A stretch of 64,000 nucleotides of DNA from an uncultured Candidatus Saccharibacteria bacterium (GTDB taxonomy: Bacteria > Patescibacteriota > Minisyncoccia > Phycocordibacterales > 2-02-FULL-43-11): assembly GCA_964348785.1 (NCBI GenBank), contig CAYGDO010000002.1, positions 66,238 through 130,237 on the forward strand, given 5' to 3'. Positions within the stretch are counted from its first letter, which is position 1. Each line of letters starts with the position of its first letter. The notes under the pieces were generated by a model that saw only the letters and a list, made by a program, of their open reading frames with translations, was not told the origin of the DNA and did not search any database. The position numbers were made by a program, and so were the translations under genes. Shown one piece after another: positions 14,776 through 26,936 of this stretch.

Positions 14776-15750
14776 TTAAAAATCAACACCGACAAGTTTT
14801 CGAACTAATTTCATTTTTTCTACCGCCTTAGATTTTGCCTTTTCACCTCCCTCTTTCAAAATTTTCAAAACACCAGCTTTATCCTTTGCAAACTCTTTTC
14901 TTTTTTCACGAAGTGGAGCAATAAAAGCAATCATGTCAGCCAACAATGCTTCTTTTAGATCTTTATATTTACCCTTTTTCTCTTCATAAAAAGCATCGAG
15001 ATATTTTTTATCTCTAAAGAGTTCATGTATTGCATAAACATTCTTTGGCAAATCACCGGTTGAATCAGTCACAATACCCATAACTAAAGTTTTAAGTTCG
15101 CTATCTTCGGCAAAAAGCGGGATAGTGTTTCCATAGCTTTTAGACATCTTTTGTCCATCAATGCCAGGAATTGTTTTAACAGATTCCAAAATCAAAGGTT
15201 CAGGCAATTTAAATGCTTCTCCAAAAATTCTGTTAAATTTTTCTGCTGTATCTCTTGCATATTCAACGTGTTGCTTTTGATCTTGCCCCACAGGCACAAC
15301 ATCCGCGTCATAAAGCAAAATATCCGCTGACATCAAAAGCGGATAATCAAAAGTACCGACAGAGACTTCCTTACCTTTCGCCATAGCGTCTTTGTACGCA
15401 TGAGCTCTTTCAAGATAAGGCATAGTAGTAATGCAATTAAAAATCCAAGCGAGTTCAGTGTGCTCAATAACATCTGATTGTTTAAATAAGGTGACTTTTT
15501 TTGGATCAAGACCTAATGCCAAGTAATCCAAAGCCAAATCAACAATATTTTCTGAAAGTTCTTTACCATTTTGAAGAGTGGTCAAAGCATGATAATCAGC
15601 AATAAAAACGTAAGAATCATGATCATTTTGCAAATCAACAAATTGTTTCATCGCGCCAAAATAGTTGGCAATATGAGGCCTGCCAGTTGGCTTAACGCCT
15701 GAAAGTAAAATTTTCTTTGAATTCATAAACTCAATGTTATCAGAAACCAA
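14776..15750 (-). CDS. trpS: tryptophan--tRNA ligase
   Basis: About 324 aa class I enzyme. 'SGVKPTGRPHIANYFGA' and 'KMSKS'. Confidence 0.9.
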   Translation of the reverse strand: MVSDNIEFMNSKKILLSGVKPTGRPHIANYFGAMKQFVDLQNDHDSYVFIADYHALTTLQNGKELSENIVDLALDYLALGLDPKKVTLFKQSDVIEHTELAWIFNCITTMPYLERAHAYKDAMAKGKEVSVGTFDYPLLMSADILLYDADVVPVGQDQKQHVEYARDTAEKFNRIFGEAFKLPEPLILESVKTIPGIDGQKMSKSYGNTIPLFAEDSELKTLVMGIVTDSTGDLPKNVYAIHELFRDKKYLDAFYEEKKGKYKDLKEALLADMIAFIAPLREKRKEFAKDKAGVLKILKEGGEKAKSKAVEKMKLVRKLVGVDF

Positions 15751-15829
15751 CTTTTTGAGAAAGAGTTGATTTAGACATACATGTCTTATTTATTTTCTAC
15801 AAGGTTCGACCTTGTAACTTTGAATACTA

Positions 15830-15997
15830 CCAACCATAAGGATAATAGACGGTTAACTCCACAATGTCCCCTTTTGTGTCTGTGGATAGAGTAATGGAAC
15901 CGAAGTGGTCGGTGAGGTGATATGAAAGAGCGGGAGATGGGGTTACTTCTACAGCTTTGGTTTGTTTTACTGCTCCGCCTTTTTTGATGAGTTAGTC
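15830..15997 (-). pseudogene. orphan remnant of an RHS core start (no start codon, begins right after a stop, ends 'YYPYGW*')
   Basis: About 165-nt duplicate, roughly 75% identical, of main-gene segment 17205-17362. Translates to 'IKKGGAVKQTKAVEVTPSPALSYHLTDHFGSITLSTDTKGDIVELTVYYPYGW'. Main-gene counterpart reads '...LIKKGGTIRQLKPIDLTSSSSLSYHLIDHLGSITLSTDTAGKVVELIDYYPYGS'. Confidence 0.6.
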
Positions 15998-16356
15998 CAA
16001 TAGTAAAGTTTAGTAGAATCAGTTGGATAATCACCTCCGCAATCTTTGTCTTTTTGGGGATCCACAATTTTATCAATTTCAACATCAAACATCCGCCAAC
16101 TGGGATTCTTAGCGTACGTATTGTCCCCCCTCTTTTCGTGACTAATAAAATGGCGCTCACTGGCACCGAAATTCTTAAAATTGTCCTGTGCCTGAAGTAA
16201 AGAAACTTCATTGGCTCCCAAAGTTTCAACAAACTTTAGTTGAGAAATGTCATCCTCCCAATTACAAATCGGGCAAATTTCGTAGTGTCCGGGAGGTTCT
16301 GAAAATACATCATACCCACAACACGGGCAAGTGAACATTGTTTCGTCTTTTTTCAT
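15967..16356 (-). CDS. CPCC-family cysteine-rich protein, putative cognate immunity protein of the upstream RHS toxin
   Basis: Literal 'CPCCGYDVFSEPPGHYEICPICNWEDD'. Starts 5 nt after the stop of the 2417-aa toxin gene. Confidence 0.6.
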   Translation of the reverse strand: MKKDETMFTCPCCGYDVFSEPPGHYEICPICNWEDDISQLKFVETLGANEVSLLQAQDNFKNFGASERHFISHEKRGDNTYAKNPSWRMFDVEIDKIVDPQKDKDCGGDYPTDSTKLYYWTNSSKKAEQ

Positions 16357-16361
16357 ACTAA

Positions 16362-19300
16362 TTACTTTAAACTTTTAAGTAAGCTCTTCAAACTGTTTGA
16401 GAGAGACTGCAAGTTGTTAATTAATTGTCCAGCTTGACGATCAAAATACGCCTGACCTGCTGACGGCTTAAAAAATGTATTGATGACAGTACCACCAGTT
16501 TTAGGATTAATTTGAAAAACCGCAAAAGAGTTCGACAAAGAATCGTAGGCCCTTGCCACACCTCCAGCATCTATTTTTAGTGAAGTTTTACCATTCATTG
16601 CGTCAGTTACAAAATCTCTAGCACCTTTTATATACTCCTTAGTATTTTTAAATCCAAATTTCTCTGCATGTTTCCCAGCATGATAAATTGCATTATCGGC
16701 CAACGTTAACTTGGTTCCTTTACTCCAGATACCCTCAAAGACTGGCACCACTTTCCCCGCGGGTATCTCCCCCGCAGTCAATGCCCCAACGGCCGCCATC
16801 CCATAATTTCCTTTATCTACATCATCTATTACTTGGCTGACAGCAACTTGCCCAAGTGGAGTGAGTAACGATTGGGCAAAGGAAGTTATCTGTGGAGCGT
16901 ACATTGTCAAAACCCCTGCAACAGCCACTAGAGCTGGAAGAAACCTCCCATCCGGGTCTTTGTAAGTTACGGGATTATTACCTCCATACGAATACGAATT
17001 CTGAACTTGAGGATTTAAAAGAGCTTCCTTCCCTTCTTTACTCATCCCCACTTCCCAAAACACCGGATCCTGATTAAGAAACTGCCCTCTTGCTCCATCG
17101 TAGTAACGAGCATTAAGGTAAGAAAGTCCTGTACTTGCATCAAACTCCTGCCCTATATACTTCCTCTGTTCTTTTGGAGAACCTCCTTCATCTGCCCTAA
17201 TACTACCATAAGGATAATAGTCGATTAATTCCACAACTTTACCAGCGGTATCTGTGGAGAGAGTAATAGAACCAAGGTGGTCGATTAAGTGGTAAGAGAG
17301 AGATGAAGATGACGTTAGGTCTATAGGCTTTAGCTGGCGGATTGTTCCTCCTTTTTTGATTAAGACGCCACCTCCTTTCTTAACTAGAAGCTTGGAGGCT
17401 TTGAGGTTGATGTAGAGAGTGGAGTCTGCTGTGACAGTAAGAACTTTACCTACAGGGACAATGACAGAAGCGGGAGCGGTAACGGAGCCCACAATAGTAC
17501 ACGAAGAAATCAGCGTGAAATCTCCTGTTTCTGGAATAACACAAGTACCAGCGTTTGCATTTGTTAACTTTGGAGCTACGGGTGTCTTTTTGTCAAAAGT
17601 GGAGAGTAACGTGTCGCCCACAAAAACGTGAGAAGTCTCGGACACAACAACGTCGTCAGAATTGTATCCTGCGTTGAAGTATTTAGATGGATACAAAGTA
17701 ACACCGCCTTTCCCATCAGAAACCTTCACCCTAGCGCCTCCGTGATCATAAGCGTAAGTGGAAGTGGCGAGACCGTTTGCAACAGAAATTAGGCGGTTGT
17801 TGTAGTCATATATATAGGAAATATTGCCAAACGAAATCAAATTACCACTTTTGTCGTAAGAGAGAGTGTTGGTTGCCACAGAACTACCGGTAACCGTCGA
17901 CGCGTGGGGGTTGGCGTAATCGGTACCATCATAAAAATAGTTAGTAGTTGTAAACTTCCCCACAGCACTACTAAATGGGGTATTTTCATTAAAAATAGGA
18001 GCTCCGAAAGCCGTGAGATGGTATGCATTCGCCGTAAAATCGTAATAATTATTGCCAAGTTTGTAGTAAGCAACAAGATTGGCCTCATTCCCACTCAACT
18101 CAGTAAGATAATTGCTATCCAAATCAACAAGCGAACGACTTGTATTCCAAAATCGGACATCGTCAACAAGACCGTCCCAATTATGCGGATTTGGGAAAGT
18201 GGCCTTACCGATAGCCAATTCATTAAACCCGCCATAACCTCTACCGACAGCAAGAGTGGGGCCTTTCACCAAAGTATGCCCGCTGCTAGTTGATGTTGCC
18301 AAATACAAGTTCATTTCTGTGCCATTGTAAGTTCCGACAATATGGTACCAAGAGCCGACAGAGAGGGTGGTGTCATAAATTATTCTTGCCCCCCCAACTC
18401 CTTCTATATGCCTGTCAAAATTAATGTGGTGAGATCCGTCAGTATAGCTTGTAGATAAAGAGTAACCGACATTGGTCACAGCATCCTGTTGAGACGCAAT
18501 AATATTGAACCCAGCGGAAGGCAAACTTTCAGGTTTTATCCAAGCCTCTATAGTAATAGGTCCCCCAGAAATACCAGCATTAGTTGGGACGGAAGCATAC
18601 TGACTAGAGTCTCCTTCAACATCTAAAGAATATGGGTTGAGTGAAACTTGCCCTTCAATTTTACTAATAATATTTCCAAGCGGATTGTAAGCAAAAGATT
18701 GTTGATTTGGCGTCGCCAATGCATCTACCAATCGATACAAATCATCATACTTATACGTCGCGATTTTCTTTGTGTTGGTTTCCGAATTATCCACAATCTG
18801 CAAAATATTTCCGACAGAATCGTAAGTGTAGGACAAATTTTGAAGTTGTAAGTTGTTAGCTGAAAGAGTCTTTTTATTTGTTAAGCGATAAAGTCGCGCT
18901 GGATCATAGGTATTTGTAGCAACAACACCATTACCATAAGTAATCGTTTTTAGCTGACCAAGTGGCGAATAATCAAAAGCGCCGATTTGCGTTACAGGTG
19001 TAGTTGTGGAAACTCCAGTTGCCGATATTGAATCAACTAAACCTGCGGAATTGTATATGTATGAAGTTTTTTTGGAATCAACGCCGGTCATTTCTGTCAC
19101 ACCTCCTCCTAAATTGTAGAGATAACTTGAAATGAAAGTTTTACCTCCAATAATTTTAGTTTCAGTTTTTGCTTGCCCCGCGGGGGTGTATGCGTAGCTA
19201 GTACTATTCATTTCTAAATTTGCCCCGACAGAATCATCGGCATAAGAAACCGCACAAAGCTTACCGATGCCGAAATCACAGGCGTCATAAGTGTAAGTTG

Positions 19301-22300
19301 TCCTAACACCTACAGGGATAGTTGAAATTGGAGAAGAAGCTGCCTCAATTTTCCCCAATCTATTCAACGAATCGTAAGTATAAACTGTTCGCGTACCATT
19401 CGGATCGGTTTTCCCCGTAAGATTGCCGACATCGTCATACTGATATGAGTAAACCCCGAAAGCGGTGTCACTTGGCGTGTGCAAATCTTCCGCCAAAAGT
19501 CGTCTACCGGAAAAGTCATAAGTGAAATTACGAATATTTTGAAGCGCATCTGTGATTTTTACAAGATTTCCTAAAGAATCATATTCATAAAATGTGGAGT
19601 AGGTGTCGGGATAATTAAATTCATCCACACGAGTAAGTCGGCCAAAAACATCTTTATAATATATTTTACTTTTACCGAGCGTGTCGGTAATTTTTGTCTG
19701 ACCGGGACTGAAATATGTATTGGTCGTCCCTAAAGCGTCAGTTTTCTGCACATTCCTACCGAGTGCATCATAAGTAAAGCTAGTATACAAAGAACTGTCA
19801 CTCGTGGCAGAAGTTTTACCTGAACCGTCACTAAAATATGGCAAAGATTGTTTTCCAACGCGACCCTCAGAATCATAAATTATGTCTGACACAATAAAAG
19901 TATTGGGATTTTCAGATTGTTTTCGAGTTTGTATCTCCCTACCAATGCCATCAAAATAAGTGTAGGTTTCGTTTGAAAGAGTACTGTTTATGAAATCAAC
20001 TTTTTTAACAGAAATATTATTTGGAGTATCTGTGTATTGATAAATTGTTTTTGTCACTAAAGAAGCCGAAATACCCGAAACCACGACGGAATTTCCGTCA
20101 GGCTGTTTTTCTTGAAGAGTACGGCCAAAAGCGTCGTATGCTTTGGAATAAATTTGATTATTTGAATCGGTGATTTGAATTGGCTTTCCTAGAGCGTAAT
20201 CGTAAAGATAAGTGGTTTTTTGATTCAAATGATTAGTGACTGAAATCGGAAAAAGATTGTATGTGTCGTAAGAATAACCGGTAGAATTTCCATTTGCATC
20301 GGTTGATGTTGCCACAAGCGCAAACGGATTGTATGTTGCAGAAGTAATGGAATACCTACCATCAGAAATCAAAGATTCTTGTTTTGTGCCATTGCCTTCT
20401 AAAAGTTGACCAAAAGGTAAATCATCAAAATATGTTTTTGATTCCGAAATCACATTTCCAGATTGCGAATTAGTAGTTTTATGAGATACCTCGTAATGAA
20501 TTTGTATTGAAGTTGAAGTGGAAACGCCCGCGTTTGAAGCGTACTCAACATTAGTTATAGTTTTGTCATTTCCAATATCAACAAAAGAATAAGAAGCGAG
20601 CGTGTTTGTTGACGCGGAAGTTACCTCGCCATAATCAACAGAAGAAATTAAATTGCCATTTGAGGTATCGTATGAATATTCCGTAGCGTGATCTTTGTGA
20701 GAAGTCGTGCCGTCAAAACTTTCTTCAATCTTTTTAGAAAGATACACAAATACCGGTGCGGAAGAAGTAAAGCCTGCTGAATTTACTCCCGCTAAAGGAG
20801 ACTCACTATAAATATTTTGATTTCTGGCGAACAACTTACCCTCCCTATCAAAAACTTCTGTTTTATATACAGAGCCGATTTTGCCGTAACTATCCCCTGT
20901 TTCTCCAGTTGAAGAGTTATCACCATTCCCCTGATGAAAATATGAAATTGTCACAGATTTTCCGGAATCTTTTGTAACCTTGCCAAATCCGGCAAATTTT
21001 CTATCGTGCGAACCGTTAAAAAATCCTTGCCCATCTGCGTAAGTGTATGTATCTACTTGTGGCTCTCCACCCACGCCATCGGTTGTAGTTATTTTGGACA
21101 CAATCCAAAGAACTGTTGGCAGTTTTAGATTAAACCGCTCACCCGAAGCGGAAGTTTTGTAATCAATAGATGTTTTTCCGCCTTGCGGGTAAGTTATAGT
21201 TTTTAAAATATCCGCTCTTGTTGTGGGGCCACTTGGAATATCAACGAGGGTGTCACCGTTGGTGTCATAGTAGTCGGTCAGTTGATAGGAAAAATTCCAC
21301 TTCCAATTGTAAGGATTTATTTTAATAAAATATGGAGACTTGAGGGTTGAACTTTTTACAAATCCATTTCCTGTATTTATGTAAACTTCATTATAATCCC
21401 CTGTTGTGTACCCGTTATCAAAATTTGGGTTGTTTGGCAAAACCCAACCACGCAAAACATCAACTAGCCCGTCAGCGTTAATATCCAGATACCGAACCCC
21501 CATATCATTACCGTCACCATCAGTCATCATTAATGTGTGGTCAGGTGAATCACCAAAAATAGGAACCATTGGTCCAGTTAACCCCCCATCTCCAGTACCT
21601 ATACGAAAAGAACTGTATCTATCGCTAGTCTTTGTATCATCTAAACCATCACCATTAACATCCATCGCACCCACTCGCCTCCTCTCCTCCCACCCAGATA
21701 TTTCGCGTCCATAAATTTCTGGTAGGCCATCTCCATTTGTGTCTGCAACGAAAGAGCCTTTGGCTACTAGCAAAGGAGTGGTAGTTGATATGTATGTATA
21801 ACTATTATCCAAACTATTAATACCGCTATTCAGATAAAGTGTCGGTGGATTGGGAGGAGGAGGACAGGTGGCGTTGGTACAACTACCTGCATTAAAGAGT
21901 GTAACCGGAACACCGAAAAAATCAGTTAAACCGTCACCATTCAAATCCGCAATACGCGCACCACTATCCTCTGGGCCTGAACCGTTTGAACCCCTAGTAT
22001 GATAAGCAAATCTTAAATTAGGTAGGGAATTTGAACCCGCTACGCCTAACTTGTTCCACTCCACCTGAATATTAAAACTATTTGATTCATAAGGGTTAAT
22101 TCCAAGCACAAATGAATCTGTGTAGCCATCACCATTCAAATCAGCATAAACATCTCCCCCTCTTTCTGGACCGTAAAAGAAAGAGCCGAGAGCCCAACTA
22201 AACGTACCGGATGAAATAGCAGGCTCAAGCCCCGTCGGTAAAACAGGATTTTCAAACCCCTTCGTGTACTCAAAAGTTGTTTGCGGTAAAGTTGTTGCAA

Positions 22301-23615
22301 CGTTTTGGGAGTCGTAGCCAGTTTCAGTAATTCCTGAAAGGATTGAACGTACGCCGTTTACACCAACTCCGTAGGCAAATTCGTATTTCTTTTTCAAAAT
22401 ATCACTGACACGAATTTCAATTATTTTGAGTCGTTTGGCATTGGTACTTAAAAATGCAAACTTGTATGAAGAAATAGCACTGTCTGAACGAGTATCTTCA
22501 TATACAAAAGTGACTTTGTAAATTCCAGATACAACTTCTCCGGAATTTGCCTGATGATTGGTATAAGTAATTTCAGTTGGATATACCTGACCGCCAGTTA
22601 CCGTATAGTTATATGAAATGTAATTACCGTTTGAATCACGGACTTCATCTAGATACCATTTAGCAACACGAGAAGCATTTGCAGGGTCCGCGTTTCGTGA
22701 AGTTGCCACCGAACCGAAAGTGTAGACTCTGCCGTTTTTATCATAAACCTTCCAACTCGTAGTGGTGGCGTTGTAAACATATTTCAAAAATTCGCCGGAA
22801 TCAACGCGAGGTTGATATAAACCAGCAATTGTAGTTGAGGCTAATTCACCGGATAAGCTGGAACTGAAATAATCTTGACCATACATTACTATATTTCCCT
22901 GCTTATTGATTCTCTCAATTGATGGAATGTTAAAATCCCAACCATACCCCATCGTATTTATGTTGGAATTCTCGGACGAGTTATATGAAATATTTAAAGA
23001 TGTCTCAACACCTGCCCTACCGGAAGGTGTAACAATCGGATAGGAATATGAAAGCGCTCCCGAGGAAGCATTGGCTTCGGGAAGAGTGGTTTTTCTATAA
23101 GCAAAATTGGAATTATCGTAAGTGGTTGGCTTGTTTTCCAACTGAGCGCTAGTGGCTTCAATTTCTGGAGGTAACAAGTCTTGCGCGTCCGGAGAAACCT
23201 CTGGAATTTCAGTGTCCAACTTTGGAGCTTCCGGAGCAATCTCGGGCACCACTTCAGTTTTTGGATTTGCATCTACAGTTGTTTCGGGAGTTATTTGTGT
23301 CGGGTCAGGTAAAATAGTAGAGCCTATTTCAGAATTTTCTGATGCAGAACTGCTTGGTGTTGATGTATCAGGAGAAACGTTGGTCTCAGCTGGGGTAGAT
23401 GGAGATGCAGTTTGGTCAGAGGAGGTTTCAACGGAAGCTACGGGGACAGGAGGTTGCGAAGCAACCTCCTGCGCAAACGCCACAGCAATCGGTTGCATTA
23501 AAAAAGCAACCACCAAAAAACTGGTTACGATTTTTTGCGTATTTGATTTTCTTATTTTCTTTGTAGAAACAATTGAAAAAAAGAAATTCATAGAATTTTT
23601 ACTGACACTTCCCAA
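16362..23615 (-). CDS. Tc-toxin-like TcB/TcC fusion / RHS polymorphic toxin: signal, S/T/P linker, SpvB domain, FG-GAP beta-propeller, YD repeats with LamG insertion, RHS core, C-terminal toxin domain
   Basis: SpvB-like N-terminal region. 'ADLNGDGLTD/DVNGDGLDD/LDINADGLVD' FG-GAP repeats. Many YD repeats ('YTYDALGR','YEYDSLGNL','YQYDDVGNL'). RHS core 'YHLIDHLGS...YYPYG...RYYDGARGQFLNQDPV...NPVTYKDPDGRF'. About 195-aa tip follows. Confidence 0.85.
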   Translation of the reverse strand: MGSVSKNSMNFFFSIVSTKKIRKSNTQKIVTSFLVVAFLMQPIAVAFAQEVASQPPVPVASVETSSDQTASPSTPAETNVSPDTSTPSSSASENSEIGSTILPDPTQITPETTVDANPKTEVVPEIAPEAPKLDTEIPEVSPDAQDLLPPEIEATSAQLENKPTTYDNSNFAYRKTTLPEANASSGALSYSYPIVTPSGRAGVETSLNISYNSSENSNINTMGYGWDFNIPSIERINKQGNIVMYGQDYFSSSLSGELASTTIAGLYQPRVDSGEFLKYVYNATTTSWKVYDKNGRVYTFGSVATSRNADPANASRVAKWYLDEVRDSNGNYISYNYTVTGGQVYPTEITYTNHQANSGEVVSGIYKVTFVYEDTRSDSAISSYKFAFLSTNAKRLKIIEIRVSDILKKKYEFAYGVGVNGVRSILSGITETGYDSQNVATTLPQTTFEYTKGFENPVLPTGLEPAISSGTFSWALGSFFYGPERGGDVYADLNGDGYTDSFVLGINPYESNSFNIQVEWNKLGVAGSNSLPNLRFAYHTRGSNGSGPEDSGARIADLNGDGLTDFFGVPVTLFNAGSCTNATCPPPPNPPTLYLNSGINSLDNSYTYISTTTPLLVAKGSFVADTNGDGLPEIYGREISGWEERRRVGAMDVNGDGLDDTKTSDRYSSFRIGTGDGGLTGPMVPIFGDSPDHTLMMTDGDGNDMGVRYLDINADGLVDVLRGWVLPNNPNFDNGYTTGDYNEVYINTGNGFVKSSTLKSPYFIKINPYNWKWNFSYQLTDYYDTNGDTLVDIPSGPTTRADILKTITYPQGGKTSIDYKTSASGERFNLKLPTVLWIVSKITTTDGVGGEPQVDTYTYADGQGFFNGSHDRKFAGFGKVTKDSGKSVTISYFHQGNGDNSSTGETGDSYGKIGSVYKTEVFDREGKLFARNQNIYSESPLAGVNSAGFTSSAPVFVYLSKKIEESFDGTTSHKDHATEYSYDTSNGNLISSVDYGEVTSASTNTLASYSFVDIGNDKTITNVEYASNAGVSTSTSIQIHYEVSHKTTNSQSGNVISESKTYFDDLPFGQLLEGNGTKQESLISDGRYSITSATYNPFALVATSTDANGNSTGYSYDTYNLFPISVTNHLNQKTTYLYDYALGKPIQITDSNNQIYSKAYDAFGRTLQEKQPDGNSVVVSGISASLVTKTIYQYTDTPNNISVKKVDFINSTLSNETYTYFDGIGREIQTRKQSENPNTFIVSDIIYDSEGRVGKQSLPYFSDGSGKTSATSDSSLYTSFTYDALGRNVQKTDALGTTNTYFSPGQTKITDTLGKSKIYYKDVFGRLTRVDEFNYPDTYSTFYEYDSLGNLVKITDALQNIRNFTYDFSGRRLLAEDLHTPSDTAFGVYSYQYDDVGNLTGKTDPNGTRTVYTYDSLNRLGKIEAASSPISTIPVGVRTTYTYDACDFGIGKLCAVSYADDSVGANLEMNSTSYAYTPAGQAKTETKIIGGKTFISSYLYNLGGGVTEMTGVDSKKTSYIYNSAGLVDSISATGVSTTTPVTQIGAFDYSPLGQLKTITYGNGVVATNTYDPARLYRLTNKKTLSANNLQLQNLSYTYDSVGNILQIVDNSETNTKKIATYKYDDLYRLVDALATPNQQSFAYNPLGNIISKIEGQVSLNPYSLDVEGDSSQYASVPTNAGISGGPITIEAWIKPESLPSAGFNIIASQQDAVTNVGYSLSTSYTDGSHHINFDRHIEGVGGARIIYDTTLSVGSWYHIVGTYNGTEMNLYLATSTSSGHTLVKGPTLAVGRGYGGFNELAIGKATFPNPHNWDGLVDDVRFWNTSRSLVDLDSNYLTELSGNEANLVAYYKLGNNYYDFTANAYHLTAFGAPIFNENTPFSSAVGKFTTTNYFYDGTDYANPHASTVTGSSVATNTLSYDKSGNLISFGNISYIYDYNNRLISVANGLATSTYAYDHGGARVKVSDGKGGVTLYPSKYFNAGYNSDDVVVSETSHVFVGDTLLSTFDKKTPVAPKLTNANAGTCVIPETGDFTLISSCTIVGSVTAPASVIVPVGKVLTVTADSTLYINLKASKLLVKKGGGVLIKKGGTIRQLKPIDLTSSSSLSYHLIDHLGSITLSTDTAGKVVELIDYYPYGSIRADEGGSPKEQRKYIGQEFDASTGLSYLNARYYDGARGQFLNQDPVFWEVGMSKEGKEALLNPQVQNSYSYGGNNPVTYKDPDGRFLPALVAVAGVLTMYAPQITSFAQSLLTPLGQVAVSQVIDDVDKGNYGMAAVGALTAGEIPAGKVVPVFEGIWSKGTKLTLADNAIYHAGKHAEKFGFKNTKEYIKGARDFVTDAMNGKTSLKIDAGGVARAYDSLSNSFAVFQINPKTGGTVINTFFKPSAGQAYFDRQAGQLINNLQSLSNSLKSLLKSLK

Positions 23616-24840
23616 TACAAATATCTCCGTCCGACACTAAATTCCCTGATAGTTTTATATCCCCAGCAACATCGAGTTTTGCCCCTGGAGTAGTAGTTCC
23701 GATTCCCACCCTACCCGTAGACTTTACTATAAGATATGAAGAAGAATTAATATACACGTCCCCTTTTGGTGGCGCGCCGACAGTCACATTATCAGCCGAA
23801 CTAAAACTAATAACATTTCTTTCGGTCCCAGAAGAATCTTTAAATTTTATAGATTGGCTATTATCAAGCAGTATGCTACCGCCACTTATGGTGAGTTTTT
23901 GAGTGGGCGATAAGGTACCTATACCTAATTTACCCCCAGTAAATACCATGTCTGGAGTAAGAGGATTAGAAACAACATTAGCAGTTAAACCAGTAGGGGT
24001 ATACCATCTAAAATCTGTAGCGGTATTTAATTGAACAGTAGCTGCCGTGCCAGAAGGAGTCACTCTATAACCAGCGCTATAAGATGGTTTACCTCCGGTA
24101 GACTGTAAAAACTCATTATTACCAGTCGTGTCGGTCATATATGTACCAAGATTTACATTATCTCCCCCTGTTGCACCTGAAGTTAATCTTAAATATCCTC
24201 CATTCAAAGTTAACCTCTCTGACGGTGAAATCGTCCCGACACCAACATTACCGGTTGAACCGACTATTACCATTCTTGACAGATGACCAGCCTTAAAATT
24301 AATGAGTGAGGTATAATCACCGAAATTAATTGGCAATGTGGTCTTACTGCCTGCCCCACCTGCAAAATAGAAACCAGTTGGATCCATACCAGCAATAATC
24401 TCTCTGTTTCTGTTTGAGAAAATATATCCACTAGTGGTATTACCGATACCAATACTACCGTAGGTTTCAAAAGGATAAAAAGGAGTTGTCGTACCCACCC
24501 CCATTCTTCCCGTCGTATCTATAGTAACTTTTGGATTGGAATTATTGGTGAAAAAATATAAATTGTGATTACTTTGAGTGCCTAGCCAACCACCAGGAAT
24601 TGAAGTATTCCAAACAAAAGTACCCATTTTCACCAAACCGTCTGTATGAACGAGACCATACTTACCGGTAGCTGTTTTTATAGTGAGAGGGCTTTCTGGA
24701 GAAGTCGTCCCGATACCAACATTACCAATGTTAGTATTGTAAATATTATTACCATTACTTTGCCAAAAAGCATCAGCAAAATTAATGTCCAAAAGAGTTA
24801 GAGTTGATAAAAAGACAACCAAAAATATTTTTTTATACAT
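23599..24840 (-). CDS. secreted repeat protein with tail-fiber-like 'G(N/S)VGIGTT(S/T)P' repeats, first gene of the RHS operon
   Basis: Signal peptide. Seven or more 'VGIGTTSP/ VGVGTISP / LGIGTLSP / VGIGTTTPGAKLDV' repeats. Ends 'DICIGKCQ'. Overlaps the RHS gene start by 17 nt. Confidence 0.6.
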   Translation of the reverse strand: MYKKIFLVVFLSTLTLLDINFADAFWQSNGNNIYNTNIGNVGIGTTSPESPLTIKTATGKYGLVHTDGLVKMGTFVWNTSIPGGWLGTQSNHNLYFFTNNSNPKVTIDTTGRMGVGTTTPFYPFETYGSIGIGNTTSGYIFSNRNREIIAGMDPTGFYFAGGAGSKTTLPINFGDYTSLINFKAGHLSRMVIVGSTGNVGVGTISPSERLTLNGGYLRLTSGATGGDNVNLGTYMTDTTGNNEFLQSTGGKPSYSAGYRVTPSGTAATVQLNTATDFRWYTPTGLTANVVSNPLTPDMVFTGGKLGIGTLSPTQKLTISGGSILLDNSQSIKFKDSSGTERNVISFSSADNVTVGAPPKGDVYINSSSYLIVKSTGRVGIGTTTPGAKLDVAGDIKLSGNLVSDGDICIGKCQ

Positions 24841-24983
24841 TTTTAAAATAGATGCCTATTTTACACAGGCAAGCTTTATATACGAGGCATTGATAAATCC
24901 GTCGCTTATAGTACCACTTTTAAAAATCAAGTCAAATTTAAAACAAACTAGATGCTACCAAAAATACCAAATATGAGAAAGTC

Positions 24984-25325
24984 TTATCTATTCAATTCGT
25001 CCTCTAACGATATAATGTAGATCTTATTAGCTACCAACCCCGAAAATTGCCCTCGAGAAGCGTTCATTGGATTAACACTTTCTAAACTCAATCTATAATT
25101 ATTAAAATAATTTTTTAAAACTTTTACATCATCACCATCTTTAAAATTTTTCAGAGTCTGCCACATATACATATCCTCTATATTTAAATCTTCAGAATTA
25201 AAACCTGCCAAATGTGAAGTCTTCCCGGAAACAGCCTCATCCTCGGAAAACTTGCGCATTTCATCTTTAAATACAATAAGCTTCTCCATCTCTAAATTTT
25301 GTTCACCTTGTTCCATATTTGCCAT
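24984..25325 (-). CDS. hypothetical protein
   Basis: ORF only. Acidic, no recognizable motif. Confidence 0.35.
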   Translation of the reverse strand: MANMEQGEQNLEMEKLIVFKDEMRKFSEDEAVSGKTSHLAGFNSEDLNIEDMYMWQTLKNFKDGDDVKVLKNYFNNYRLSLESVNPMNASRGQFSGLVANKIYIISLEDELNR

Positions 25326-25340
25326 AAAATTGTGATTAAA

Positions 25341-26936
25341 TTAATCTAATAAACTCAATTCTACAAAAAATTCTGACCCTTTGCCTTCTCCCTCAGACTC
25401 AACCCAAATTTTTCCGGAGTGTGCTTCTATAATCTTTTTTGCTAAATACAAACCTAAACCTGTACCAAGAATATTGACCTTTGATGCATCCTCCGCCCTG
25501 CTAAACTTCTGAAACAGATGCTCAATTGTCTCCTTCTTAATACCCACACCGGTATCTTTTACAGAAAAAATTGCTTTGTCATCTTTTTTATAGACAGAAA
25601 TCAACATAAAACCTGCCGGTGTATATTTGATTGAATTATCAATTATATTAGCTATTATCTGCCTAATTTTCAATTGATCTGCCATTACAAAAACTTTTTC
25701 GTTTATATTGATCTTCAACTCTAAACCTTTATTATCAATATTTGGCTTTATTTCATTTATCACCTCTTTTACAAGTTCAGATAAATCAAATTTGGCCATT
25801 TCATATTTCATTCTTCCTTGTTCAATTCTCGAAATATTCAAAAAATCTTCCACTAAATCGGCCAGTGAATCACTAGACTGAAAAATAGTTTTTACCGGCT
25901 CTTTTAAATGCGCTGGGACTTCACCAAAATCTCCCTCCATTATTTCTGACGCATAACCTTTTATAGCAGTCAAAGGGCCACGAATTTGATGGCTAGCAAG
26001 AGATAAAAATTCGCTTTTCAATTGATCCAAATCTTTCAATTTATCGTTGGCTTTTTCCAATTCCACTGCCAAGATTTGAATTTTTTCCCTTTGAGCGACT
26101 TCTCTATAAACACTTCTTACCAATAAAATACCAAATACAGTAGTTAATATTAAAACCGTTCCATTTATTAATTGATCAATTAACCTATCAGACAAAACGG
26201 TCCTAAAAAGCAAAATAAGCCATAGAGTTCCGGTCAACATTTCAGCTGAAATAATTCTTACGTTAAACAATTTATATCTCAAAATTGCGATAGTAATAAT
26301 TATTGGATAGAAAGCAAAAAGTGGTAATAAATAAGGAGGAATCTGCACGTTAAAAGTTAAAAAGAATACACTTCCCCCTCCTATAAATCCAAACAAAGAA
26401 GAAAAGAAAACCCACCACAACCTAGGTCTTTCTCTTTTCGCATAATTTTTTATAGCGTTAAACAGAAAAAACTGAGCAAGAATAGTGACTGCAAAAAAAT
26501 AGAAGGTAAAATAAATATAAAGAGGGCCAGCATCGGGAACAAATGGAAATGGGCCTTTGGCTAAGACATCTCTGATGTAGACTTGCGTATTACCAAAATA
26601 TAAAAAGAAAATGGTAAAAGGAATCGTTAAATAAAAATAAAATTTATAGCGATCAAACACTCTTACCAATTTTAAAATAAACAATAAATAAAAAAGTGGT
26701 ATTAAAATAGCCCCATAATGTAATATTTGGTCACTAATAAATGCAGTTTTTTTATCATCAGTAACAATCATCAAAAAATACCCGAAACTCCAGATGGCGG
26801 TGCTTAGGTTTAACAACATCCAAGAATTGCCTTCTTCTTTTTTTGAATCACTAAAATAAACTGCGGCACCAGACAATAAGGCCACTACCCCGCCAAGAAA
26901 AAGAGAAACGCTATAATAATTAAAAATAGAAAACAT
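25341..26936 (-). CDS. sensor histidine kinase with polytopic N-terminal sensor domain
   Basis: H-box 'LSLASHQIRGPLTAIKGY', G-boxes 'DTGVGI' and 'GTGLGLYLAKKIIEAHSGKIWVES'. Six or more TM helices. Confidence 0.85.
   Translation of the reverse strand: MFSIFNYYSVSLFLGGVVALLSGAAVYFSDSKKEEGNSWMLLNLSTAIWSFGYFLMIVTDDKKTAFISDQILHYGAILIPLFYLLFILKLVRVFDRYKFYFYLTIPFTIFFLYFGNTQVYIRDVLAKGPFPFVPDAGPLYIYFTFYFFAVTILAQFFLFNAIKNYAKRERPRLWWVFFSSLFGFIGGGSVFFLTFNVQIPPYLLPLFAFYPIIITIAILRYKLFNVRIISAEMLTGTLWLILLFRTVLSDRLIDQLINGTVLILTTVFGILLVRSVYREVAQREKIQILAVELEKANDKLKDLDQLKSEFLSLASHQIRGPLTAIKGYASEIMEGDFGEVPAHLKEPVKTIFQSSDSLADLVEDFLNISRIEQGRMKYEMAKFDLSELVKEVINEIKPNIDNKGLELKININEKVFVMADQLKIRQIIANIIDNSIKYTPAGFMLISVYKKDDKAIFSVKDTGVGIKKETIEHLFQKFSRAEDASKVNILGTGLGLYLAKKIIEAHSGKIWVESEGEGKGSEFFVELSLLD

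What the first reader, a model, noticed from the sequence alone, without database searches (positions are those of the whole stretch)
15830..15997. Orphan duplicate of the RHS core start immediately downstream of the immunity gene
A roughly 165-nt segment, about 75% identical to toxin-gene positions 17205-17362, encodes '...SYHLTDHFGSITLSTDTKGDIVELTVYYPYGW*'. It has no start codon, begins directly after a stop, and begins inside the last codons of the CPCC gene. It lies about 80 nt upstream of trpS. This looks like a recombination footprint of RHS tip or cassette exchange, or a decayed second rhs copy. It also explains the spurious ORF 15786..16232. Unusually, the remnant retains the beginning (DHLGS...PYG) of the core rather than the DPxGL end.
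Basis: seen in the sequence. Interest (0 to 1): 0.65.

Follow-up and report, generated by a model that had tools for sequence, protein, structure and literature searches.

The report
Truncated relic of orphan Rhs toxin module
A dead, roughly 170-base leftover of an older Rhs toxin gene end sits just after the current toxin's immunity gene in a Patescibacteria genome; it is an ordinary by-product of how these toxin loci swap their tips.

Summary
Window 15823..15991 (- strand) is a second copy of rhs codons 2085-2139 (17199..17363): blastn 73.9% over 157 nt, E 4e-21; 35/54 residues in a gapless protein alignment. It is the only extra copy in the 64 kb.

It is best read as the vestige of a displaced "orphan" rhs C-terminal module.
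- **5' end:** cut by a junction in codons 121-122 of the CPCC immunity gene. That gene reads its last 7 codons and its stop from relic DNA in another frame.
- **3' end:** cut after PYGSI, about 80 codons before the DPxG motif, at the edge of a ~9.6-kb higher-GC island inserted between hisK and trpS.
- **Divergence from the main gene is codon-structured:** dN/dS is about 0.3, and the relic is as far from its neighbour as from other organisms' cores. It therefore came from a separate, once-functional allele, not a recent local duplication.
- **Signs of decay:** F replaces an invariant L, V replaces a conserved D, and a 4-nt insertion creates a stop. There is no usable start codon.

Related Patescibacteria loci carry full orphan arrays, and one has a similar truncated fragment. 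This is a known kind of feature and of low interest.

The parts
15823..15991 (-). Relic of an rhs core fragment, equivalent to toxin residues 2085-2139 (LIKKGG...YYPYG, then AGTATT). It has no usable start codon and is non-coding.
17199..17363 (-). The matching segment inside the intact rhs gene (residues 2085-2139).
15991..15996 (-). 5' junction, in codons T121/N122 of the CPCC gene. Upstream is immunity-family sequence (conserved LYYW motif, W120). Downstream is rhs-derived DNA read in another frame.
15967..15990 (-). The last 7 codons (SSKKAEQ) and the TAA stop of the CPCC gene, encoded by relic DNA.
15829..15832 (-). 4-nt TGGT insertion or duplication relative to the main gene. It shifts the frame and gives TGG TAG.
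15827..15829 (-). TAG stop that ends the relic's frame.
15967..16356 (-). 129-aa Cys_rich_CPCC protein, the probable cognate immunity protein of the toxin tip.
   Evidence: PF14206, E 1.5e-26. The tip-CPCC pairing recurs in L091.
16362..23615 (-). Full-length 2417-aa Rhs/YD-shell polymorphic toxin with SpvB, FG-GAP, TcdB_midN, RHS repeat and LamG domains. Rhs_assc_core is at 16947..17219, DPDGRF at 16941..16958, and the tip at 16365..16940.
15797..15817 (-). Hairpin (TTACAAGGT CGA ACCTTGTAG) 6 nt after the end of the relic. It has no U-tract and its role is unknown.
   Evidence: The terminator scan did not call it.
14776..15726 (-). trpS, the native gene flanking the island. TGATAACAT at 15734..15742 resembles the TGnTAnTAT element that relatives have 6-7 nt before their trpS ATG.
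15823..24840 (-). Higher-GC inserted block (g413, rhs, CPCC gene, relic) between hisK and trpS. Whether g113 (24984..25325, GC 0.325) belongs to it is unclear.

Best explanation
The segment is a non-functional vestige of an "orphan" rhs C-terminal module, that is, the displaced 3' end of an older or different rhs allele.

**Proposed history (inferred).**
1. A DNA segment carrying the present core end, toxin tip and CPCC immunity gene was joined upstream of an older rhs 3' region.
2. The downstream joint was illegitimate. It fell two codons after the last conserved residue of the immunity gene and at the LIKKGG codons of the older core.
3. The immunity gene now finishes on seven codons and a stop borrowed from the relic in another frame.
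4. The rest of the older module (remaining core, DPxG motif, tip, immunity gene) is gone. It was lost either by later deletion or because the transferred island ended there.

The relic has no start codon and is decaying. It probably does nothing now except supply the tail and stop codon of the immunity gene.

**What is shown:** the homology, both boundaries, the codon-structured divergence, the decay marks, the island context, and orphan arrays in relatives.

**What is inferred:** the order and mechanism of the events.
For: - **Significant, unique homology** to the main rhs gene.
- **Codon-structured divergence:** identity at codon positions 1/2/3 is 37/47/30 of 53, pS 0.50, pN 0.21, dN/dS about 0.30. 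Most divergence therefore arose while both copies were coding.
- **Distance to other cores:** the relic is about 64% identical to the best database cores (P0014, P0001), the same as to its neighbour. It is not a recent local copy.
- **Decay marks:** F at a position that is L in 115/115 homologues, V where 106/115 have D, and a 4-nt insertion giving a stop.
- **Immunity-gene junction:** CPCC homologues are conserved up to LYYW and then have variable tails, so the junction at 15991-15996 leaves the immunity protein intact.
- **Orphan arrays in relatives:** a same-architecture 2336-aa rhs is followed by five orphan core+tip modules, each with a small downstream ORF. In L091 a homologous tip+CPCC pair is followed 8 nt later by the next orphan. 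That is the window's layout, except that here the next orphan is truncated.
- **A second truncated fragment:** L087 15573-15689, E 2.6e-9.
- **Composition:** the relic has GC 0.44, like rhs (0.41). The 94 nt after it have 0.30, like the host flanks.
- **Synteny:** relatives have hisK directly next to trpS.
- **Independent assemblies:** the same layout appears in three or more.
- **Literature:** orphan fragments lack initiation signals, retain variable upstream sequence, and are sometimes truncated without an immunity gene (PMC3150448).
Against: - No relative with an intact version of this particular orphan was found. A word-index search with the 54-aa peptide found nothing, as did a JGI metagenome scan. 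The history is therefore a reconstruction.
- The main core is nominally the relic's closest relative (35/54), so an old in-locus duplication cannot be strictly excluded.
- The 54-codon frame is still open, so either the decay is young or there is some constraint.
- Whether the 3' truncation was a deletion in place or the end of the transferred DNA is unresolved.
Confidence: 0.8

Rival explanations
1. Old in-place tandem duplication of the main gene's own core segment, followed by neutral decay. No second allele or cassette exchange is involved.
For: The two copies are direct repeats 1372 nt apart. The main core is nominally the best match, 35/54 against 34/53 for P0014 and P0001.
Against: - A neutrally decaying copy should differ equally at all codon positions. 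Observed differences at positions 1/2/3 are 16/6/23, and dN/dS is about 0.3. At most about 40% of the divergence can be neutral.
- The divergence equals that between different organisms' cores.
- Related loci show that orphans of distinct origin are the rule.
Confidence: 0.08
2. The relic is kept as a downstream homology "handle". Core segments would flank each tip-immunity cassette so that incoming cassettes can be captured, or resident ones looped out, by recombination between the main core and the terminal relic.
For: The direct repeats flank exactly the rest-of-core + tip + immunity unit. A similar terminal core fragment lies at the far end of the array in L087. The frame is still open over 54 codons.
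Against: - The longest identical run between the two copies is only 16 nt, at 72-74% identity. That is poor substrate for homologous recombination.
- The substitutions at invariant residues suggest no selection on the sequence.
- No variation among strains is available to test conservation.
Confidence: 0.07
3. Programmed -1 ribosomal frameshifting at A_AAA_AAG (15979-15985) in the CPCC gene. It would extend part of the immunity protein by the 48 relic-encoded residues.
For: The dnaX-type heptamer is in the correct zero frame. The -1 frame is the relic's frame, open to 15827 (read directly from the sequence).
Against: - The same AAAAAAG occurs in the main core, where it encodes LIKKGG. It is therefore inherited, not evolved.
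- There is no convincing stimulatory structure: the fold z-score is -0.83, and the only stem overlaps the slip site.
- The zero-frame stop is only 3 codons further on.
- CPCC homologues end with short variable tails.
Confidence: 0.03
4. Chance similarity, low-complexity sequence, an assembly artefact, or a template/variable repeat pair of a diversity-generating retroelement.
For: None beyond the presence of two ~160-nt direct repeats.
Against: - E 4e-21 at the nucleotide level and 5.7e-17 at the protein level.
- Identical sequence in independent assemblies.
- Mismatches fall on all four bases in both copies (A 15, C 17, G 9, T 4 in the relic; A 12, C 13, G 6, T 14 in the core). There is no adenine-specific pattern.
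Confidence: 0.01

Closest known systems
Orphan rhs-CT/rhsI modules of Enterobacteria (Dickeya, Yersinia, Salmonella; Poole et al. 2011, PMC3150448; Koskiniemi et al. 2014, PMC3967940)
   Same: It lies downstream of a full-length rhs and its immunity gene, on the same strand. It begins with a fragment homologous to the main gene's core and lacks its own initiation signal. It is attributed to displacement by an incoming tip/immunity cassette.
   Different: Only 54 codons survive, with no DPxG motif, no toxin tip and no immunity gene. Identity to the main core is low (about 72-74% nt), whereas enterobacterial orphans can share enough homology to recombine with the main gene. The host is a Patescibacteria bacterium, and the toxin has a SpvB/TcdB-type N-terminal region.
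Truncated cdiA-CT fragments lacking VENN and cdiI (Klebsiella variicola At-22, Erwinia pyrifoliae; PMC3150448)
   Same: A decayed piece of a polymorphic-toxin gene inside or at the end of an orphan array. It lacks both the motif that marks the toxin tip and a cognate immunity gene.
   Different: A different toxin family (CdiA, not Rhs).
Orphan arrays in related Patescibacteria loci found here (L084/L087, L086, L088, L091)
   Same: Same toxin architecture and the same position relative to immunity genes. L087 15573-15689 is a similarly truncated fragment of the same core segment.
   Different: Most of those orphans are intact (309-546 aa with tips and downstream small ORFs), and several have their own conserved N-terminal leader. 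The window's relic has none of these.

Membership tests
Orphan rhs-CT/rhsI module | [quoted passage not shown] | tested here: met
   rhs at 16362..23615, CPCC gene at 15967..16356, relic at 15823..15991, all on the - strand.
Orphan rhs-CT/rhsI module | Starts with a fragment homologous to the main gene's core and has no translation start of its own | tested here: met
   35/54 aa identical to residues 2085-2138. The only start-type codon is a GTG at codon 44.
Orphan rhs-CT/rhsI module | Encodes the core-end DPxG(L) motif followed by a variable toxin tip | tested here: not met
   Homology ends at 15823, after PYGSI. The main gene's DPDG is about 80 codons further on. There is no TIGR03696 hit for the relic peptide.
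Orphan rhs-CT/rhsI module | Followed by its own immunity gene | tested here: not met
   Only about 100 nt, containing a hairpin, separate the relic from trpS.
RHS repeat-associated core domain (TIGR03696) | Match to the ~76-position model that ends at DPxG | tested here: not met
   The main toxin matches at residues 2133-2223 (E 5e-18). The relic peptide gives no hit and covers only the first ~6 residues of that domain.
DGR template/variable repeat pair | Mismatches confined to adenines of one copy | tested here: not met
   The 45 mismatches are spread over A, C, G and T in both copies.
dnaX-type programmed -1 frameshift site | X_XXY_YYZ slippery heptamer in the zero frame | tested here: met
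   A_AAA_AAG at 15979-15985 in the CPCC frame.
dnaX-type programmed -1 frameshift site | Downstream stimulatory structure, and conservation of the shifted product | tested here: inconclusive
   The fold z-score is -0.83 and there is no separate stem 5-9 nt downstream. The heptamer is also present in the main core. No diverged strains are available to test conservation.
Cognate immunity gene of an Rhs tip (for the CPCC gene) | Immediately downstream of the toxin, and co-varying with the tip family in other loci | tested here: met
   There is a 5-nt gap after the rhs stop. In L091 a tip homologue (43% identity) is followed by a CPCC homologue (47.5% identity). Neutralising activity was not tested.

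The most novel reading that the evidence does not exclude
Terminal core relics may be maintained in Patescibacteria rhs arrays as recombination handles, so that whole tip-immunity cassettes can be captured or excised between the main core and the relic. Alternatively, the A_AAA_AAG site may yield a frameshifted immunity-relic fusion with a function. Either would make the relic a working part of a cassette-exchange or regulatory system rather than debris.
Probability: 0.07. Interest if true: 0.5.

Novelty: new member of a known kind. Interest (0 to 1): 0.2.

Why it matters
It documents, at base resolution, one junction of an Rhs toxin cassette replacement in a reduced-genome Patescibacteria bacterium. 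The immunity gene now ends on codons borrowed from the displaced toxin gene. It also shows that these organisms build orphan toxin/immunity arrays like those of Proteobacteria. For annotation, it flags 15823..15991 as a pseudogene fragment and ORF 15786..16232 as spurious. It does not reveal a new mechanism.

Tried and rejected
- **Word-index protein search with the 54-aa relic peptide:** no candidates.
- **JGI metagenome scan with the relic peptide:** 600 pattern matches, none confirmed. No intact counterpart of the relic was found.
- **trpS-anchored synteny search in 80 genomes:** none has rhs near trpS. This was useful only to show that hisK and trpS are normally adjacent.
- **Strain variant L083:** identical across the whole rhs-CPCC-relic region, so it gives no information on selection.
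- **Terminator and promoter scan:** nothing above chance. The promoter-like site inside the relic (15870..15842) is within the number expected from shuffles.
- **RNA fold of 15727..16000:** unremarkable, z-score -0.83.
- **Rfam:** only a meaningless E 0.5 hit. There is no T-box or other leader upstream of trpS.
- **DGR repeat-pair idea:** rejected on the mismatch spectrum.
- **A 22-nt repeat (15725-15746 and 25349-25370)** at both edges of the island, possibly a displaced hisK tail. The score is reached by 34/2000 shuffles and by 13/249 windows, two of which are the hisK tail matching itself, so about 11 others. This is too weak to use.
- **Pfam on the toxin tip, g113 and g413:** no credible family.
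- **ARAGORN:** no tRNA genes in the window, so the tRNA-Lys repertoire relevant to frameshifting could not be checked.

Full report
**1. Layout**

All relevant genes are on the - strand. Reading in the direction of transcription:
- hisK at 25341..26936
- a 113-aa ORF (g113) at 24984..25325
- a 413-aa ORF (g413) at 23599..24840
- a 2417-aa rhs gene at 16362..23615
- a 129-aa gene at 15967..16356
- the segment in question
- trpS at 14776..15726

Pfam places SpvB, FG-GAP, TcdB_toxin_midN, RHS repeats and a Laminin_G_3 domain in the large protein. It places Cys_rich_CPCC (E 1.5e-26) in the small one. NCBIfam puts the Rhs_assc_core domain (TIGR03696) at toxin residues 2133-2223, ending in DPDG. The variable tip is therefore residues 2226-2417. 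Synteny hits name the organism group as Patescibacteria/Paceibacteria.

**2.

- blastn of 15780..16010 against the whole window gives one real hit: 15833..15988 to 17205..17360, 73.9% over 157 columns, E 4e-21. Everything else has E >= 0.14.
- The repeat finder finds the same pair (D1).
- tblastn with the toxin C-terminus gives E 5.7e-17.
- The frame 15991..15827 reads LIKKGGAVKQTKAVEVTPSPALSYHLTDHFGSITLSTDTKGDIVELTVYYPYGW*. It aligns without gaps to toxin residues 2085-2138, 35/54 identical.
- It starts right after a stop, and its only start-type codon is a GTG at codon 44.
- The same sequence is present in independent assemblies, so it is not an assembly artefact.

**3. Boundaries**

*5' side.* An alignment of the CPCC protein with 17 homologues shows conservation up to the LYYW motif (W120 invariant). 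Short tails of variable length and sequence follow. Homology to rhs begins at 15991. The joint therefore lies in codons T121/N122 (15991-15996). The last seven residues (SSKKAEQ) and the TAA stop (15967-15969) are read from rhs-derived DNA in a different frame.

*3' side.* After TAT GGT (PYG) the relic has four extra bases (TGGT, 15829-15832), which create TGG TAG. It then shares AGTATT with the main gene. After 15823 there is no similarity. A hairpin follows at 15797-15817, and then AT-rich sequence up to trpS.

**4. Origin**

Divergence from the main gene is codon-structured. Identity at codon positions 1/2/3 is 37/47/30 of 53. By the Nei-Gojobori method, pS is 0.50, pN is 0.21 and dN/dS is about 0.30. 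Most of the divergence therefore accumulated while both copies encoded protein.

Against 120 homologues recovered with the toxin C-terminus, the relic is about 64% identical to the best cores (P0014, P0001). That is the same as its identity to its own neighbour. It therefore stems from a separate allele, not from a recent local duplication.

The relic also carries marks of relaxed constraint:
- F where 115/115 homologues have L (the DHLGS motif)
- V where 106/115 have D
- the frameshifting 4-nt insertion

The mismatch spectrum is not adenine-specific, which excludes a retroelement template/variable repeat pair.

**5. Context**

In many relatives, hisK is followed within 6-160 nt by trpS. None of the 80 relatives has rhs there.

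In the window, the block between hisK and trpS has GC 0.37-0.44, against 0.31-0.34 in the flanks. The relic has GC 0.44, like rhs (0.41). The 94 nt after it have 0.30. The relic is therefore the last piece of an inserted island.

A TGATAACAT element 7 nt before the trpS ATG resembles the TGnTAnTAT element seen at that position in relatives. This suggests that trpS keeps its own promoter (inference).

**6. Related loci**

A JGI/ENA contig (L084, L085, L087) has a 2336-aa rhs of the same architecture. It is followed by core+tip fragments that start at toxin-equivalent residues 2116, 1933, 1945, 2061 and 1950. Each of these has a small downstream ORF.

In the YHL..PYG block, that locus's main gene is only 21/32 identical to its four large orphans. 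Low main-to-orphan identity is therefore normal in this family.

The same locus has a truncated fragment at 15573-15689: LQPSETTTSTASSLSYHLTDHLNSVTIFTDPAG..., E 2.6e-9. It lacks the rest of the core. This is a second relic of the same kind.

In L091, a tip homologue (43% identity) is followed by a CPCC homologue (47.5% identity). The next orphan starts 8 nt later. This supports the CPCC protein as the cognate immunity protein. It also shows the exact layout of which the window holds a truncated version.

Poole et al. 2011 describe:
- orphan fragments without initiation signals
- variable amounts of retained upstream sequence
- truncated fragments without the tip motif or an immunity gene (PMC3150448)

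**7. Mechanism**

The best explanation (confidence 0.8) is displacement. A segment carrying the present core end, tip and CPCC gene was joined, by an illegitimate downstream joint, to the LIKKGG codons of an older rhs 3' region. The remainder of that older module was lost. The loss happened either by deletion or because the transferred island ended there. The relic is now inert apart from supplying the immunity gene's tail and stop.

The homology, the boundaries, the substitution pattern and the context are shown. The sequence of events is inferred.

Rivals:
- **Old in-place duplication (0.08).** The codon-position pattern argues against it.
- **A maintained recombination handle (0.07).** The longest identical run is only 16 nt, and invariant residues have been replaced.
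- **-1 frameshifting at A_AAA_AAG, 15979-15985 (0.03).** The heptamer is inherited from the LIKKGG codons and has no convincing stimulator.
- **Chance, artefact or DGR (0.01).**

**8. Verdict**

However, this is a known kind of object, a decayed orphan fragment in a polymorphic-toxin locus, here in a Patescibacteria genome. Retaining the upstream core piece is what a 3'-truncated orphan is expected to do. ORF 15786..16232 is spurious but lies in a third frame, so the relic does not explain it. Interest is low (0.2).

Noticed in passing
L087 5198-6838 and 11676-13136; proteins P0003, P0004, P0005; also P0009, P0103, P0026: Orphan rhs modules in related loci begin with conserved N-terminal leaders that are not homologous to the main gene. 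One is MQTKVK..VSLSEIWRAYQRAL. Another is MDGLNPPPYRQ, fused just before LSYHLTDHLGS, and P0026 has a signal-peptide-like start ahead of it. Some "orphans" may therefore be independently translated short toxins.
   Followed up: no
window 15979-15985 (- strand): A dnaX-type slippery heptamer, A_AAA_AAG, lies in the zero frame of the CPCC gene, and the -1 frame is the relic's open frame. The same AAAAAAG is in the main core (LIKKGG codons), so it is probably an inherited coincidence.
   Followed up: partly
window 15725-15746 and 25349-25370: A 22-nt direct repeat (11 nt exact, ATTGAGTTTAT on the - strand) lies at both edges of the island, at the hisK C-terminal codons (ELSL) and just before the trpS ATG. 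It could be a displaced hisK tail, but 34/2000 shuffles and 13/249 windows (two of them the hisK tail matching itself) score as well.
   Followed up: partly
window 15823-24840 against the flanks: The rhs block has GC 0.37-0.44 and near-zero GC skew. The flanking housekeeping genes have GC 0.31-0.34 and negative skew. This fits horizontal acquisition, or a composition peculiar to Rhs genes.
   Followed up: partly
window 14914-15059 (trpS 3' part) against L083: The strain contig L083 is identical through rhs, the CPCC gene and the relic. It has 60 mismatches packed into about 146 nt of trpS, at the end of the contig. This is either a recombination patch or a contig-end chimera.
   Followed up: no
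L091 1097-3886: An orphan array holds a tip homologous to the window's toxin tip (43% identity), a CPCC protein (47.5% identity), then a second orphan with a PT-TG domain and a 100-aa ORF. CPCC-family proteins thus recur as partners of this tip family.
   Followed up: partly
relatives L013, L023, L044, L063; window 15734-15742: A TGnTAnTAT element lies 6-7 nt upstream of the trpS ATG in several Patescibacteria. It looks like an extended -10 box that would give a leaderless or near-leaderless trpS mRNA.
   Followed up: no
window 23687-25241: Five copies of a 29-nt repeat (GGTGAAATCGTCCCGACACCAACATTACC on the + strand) lie inside the 413-aa and 113-aa ORFs upstream of rhs. They probably encode a repeated glycine-rich peptide motif. 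Neither ORF has a Pfam family.
   Followed up: no
window 16941-17219 (toxin residues 2133-2225): The toxin has a DPVFW motif at residues 2183-2187 and the canonical NNPxxxxDPDG about 35 residues later. The core-end region is therefore longer than the 76-position TIGR03696 model suggests.
   Followed up: no
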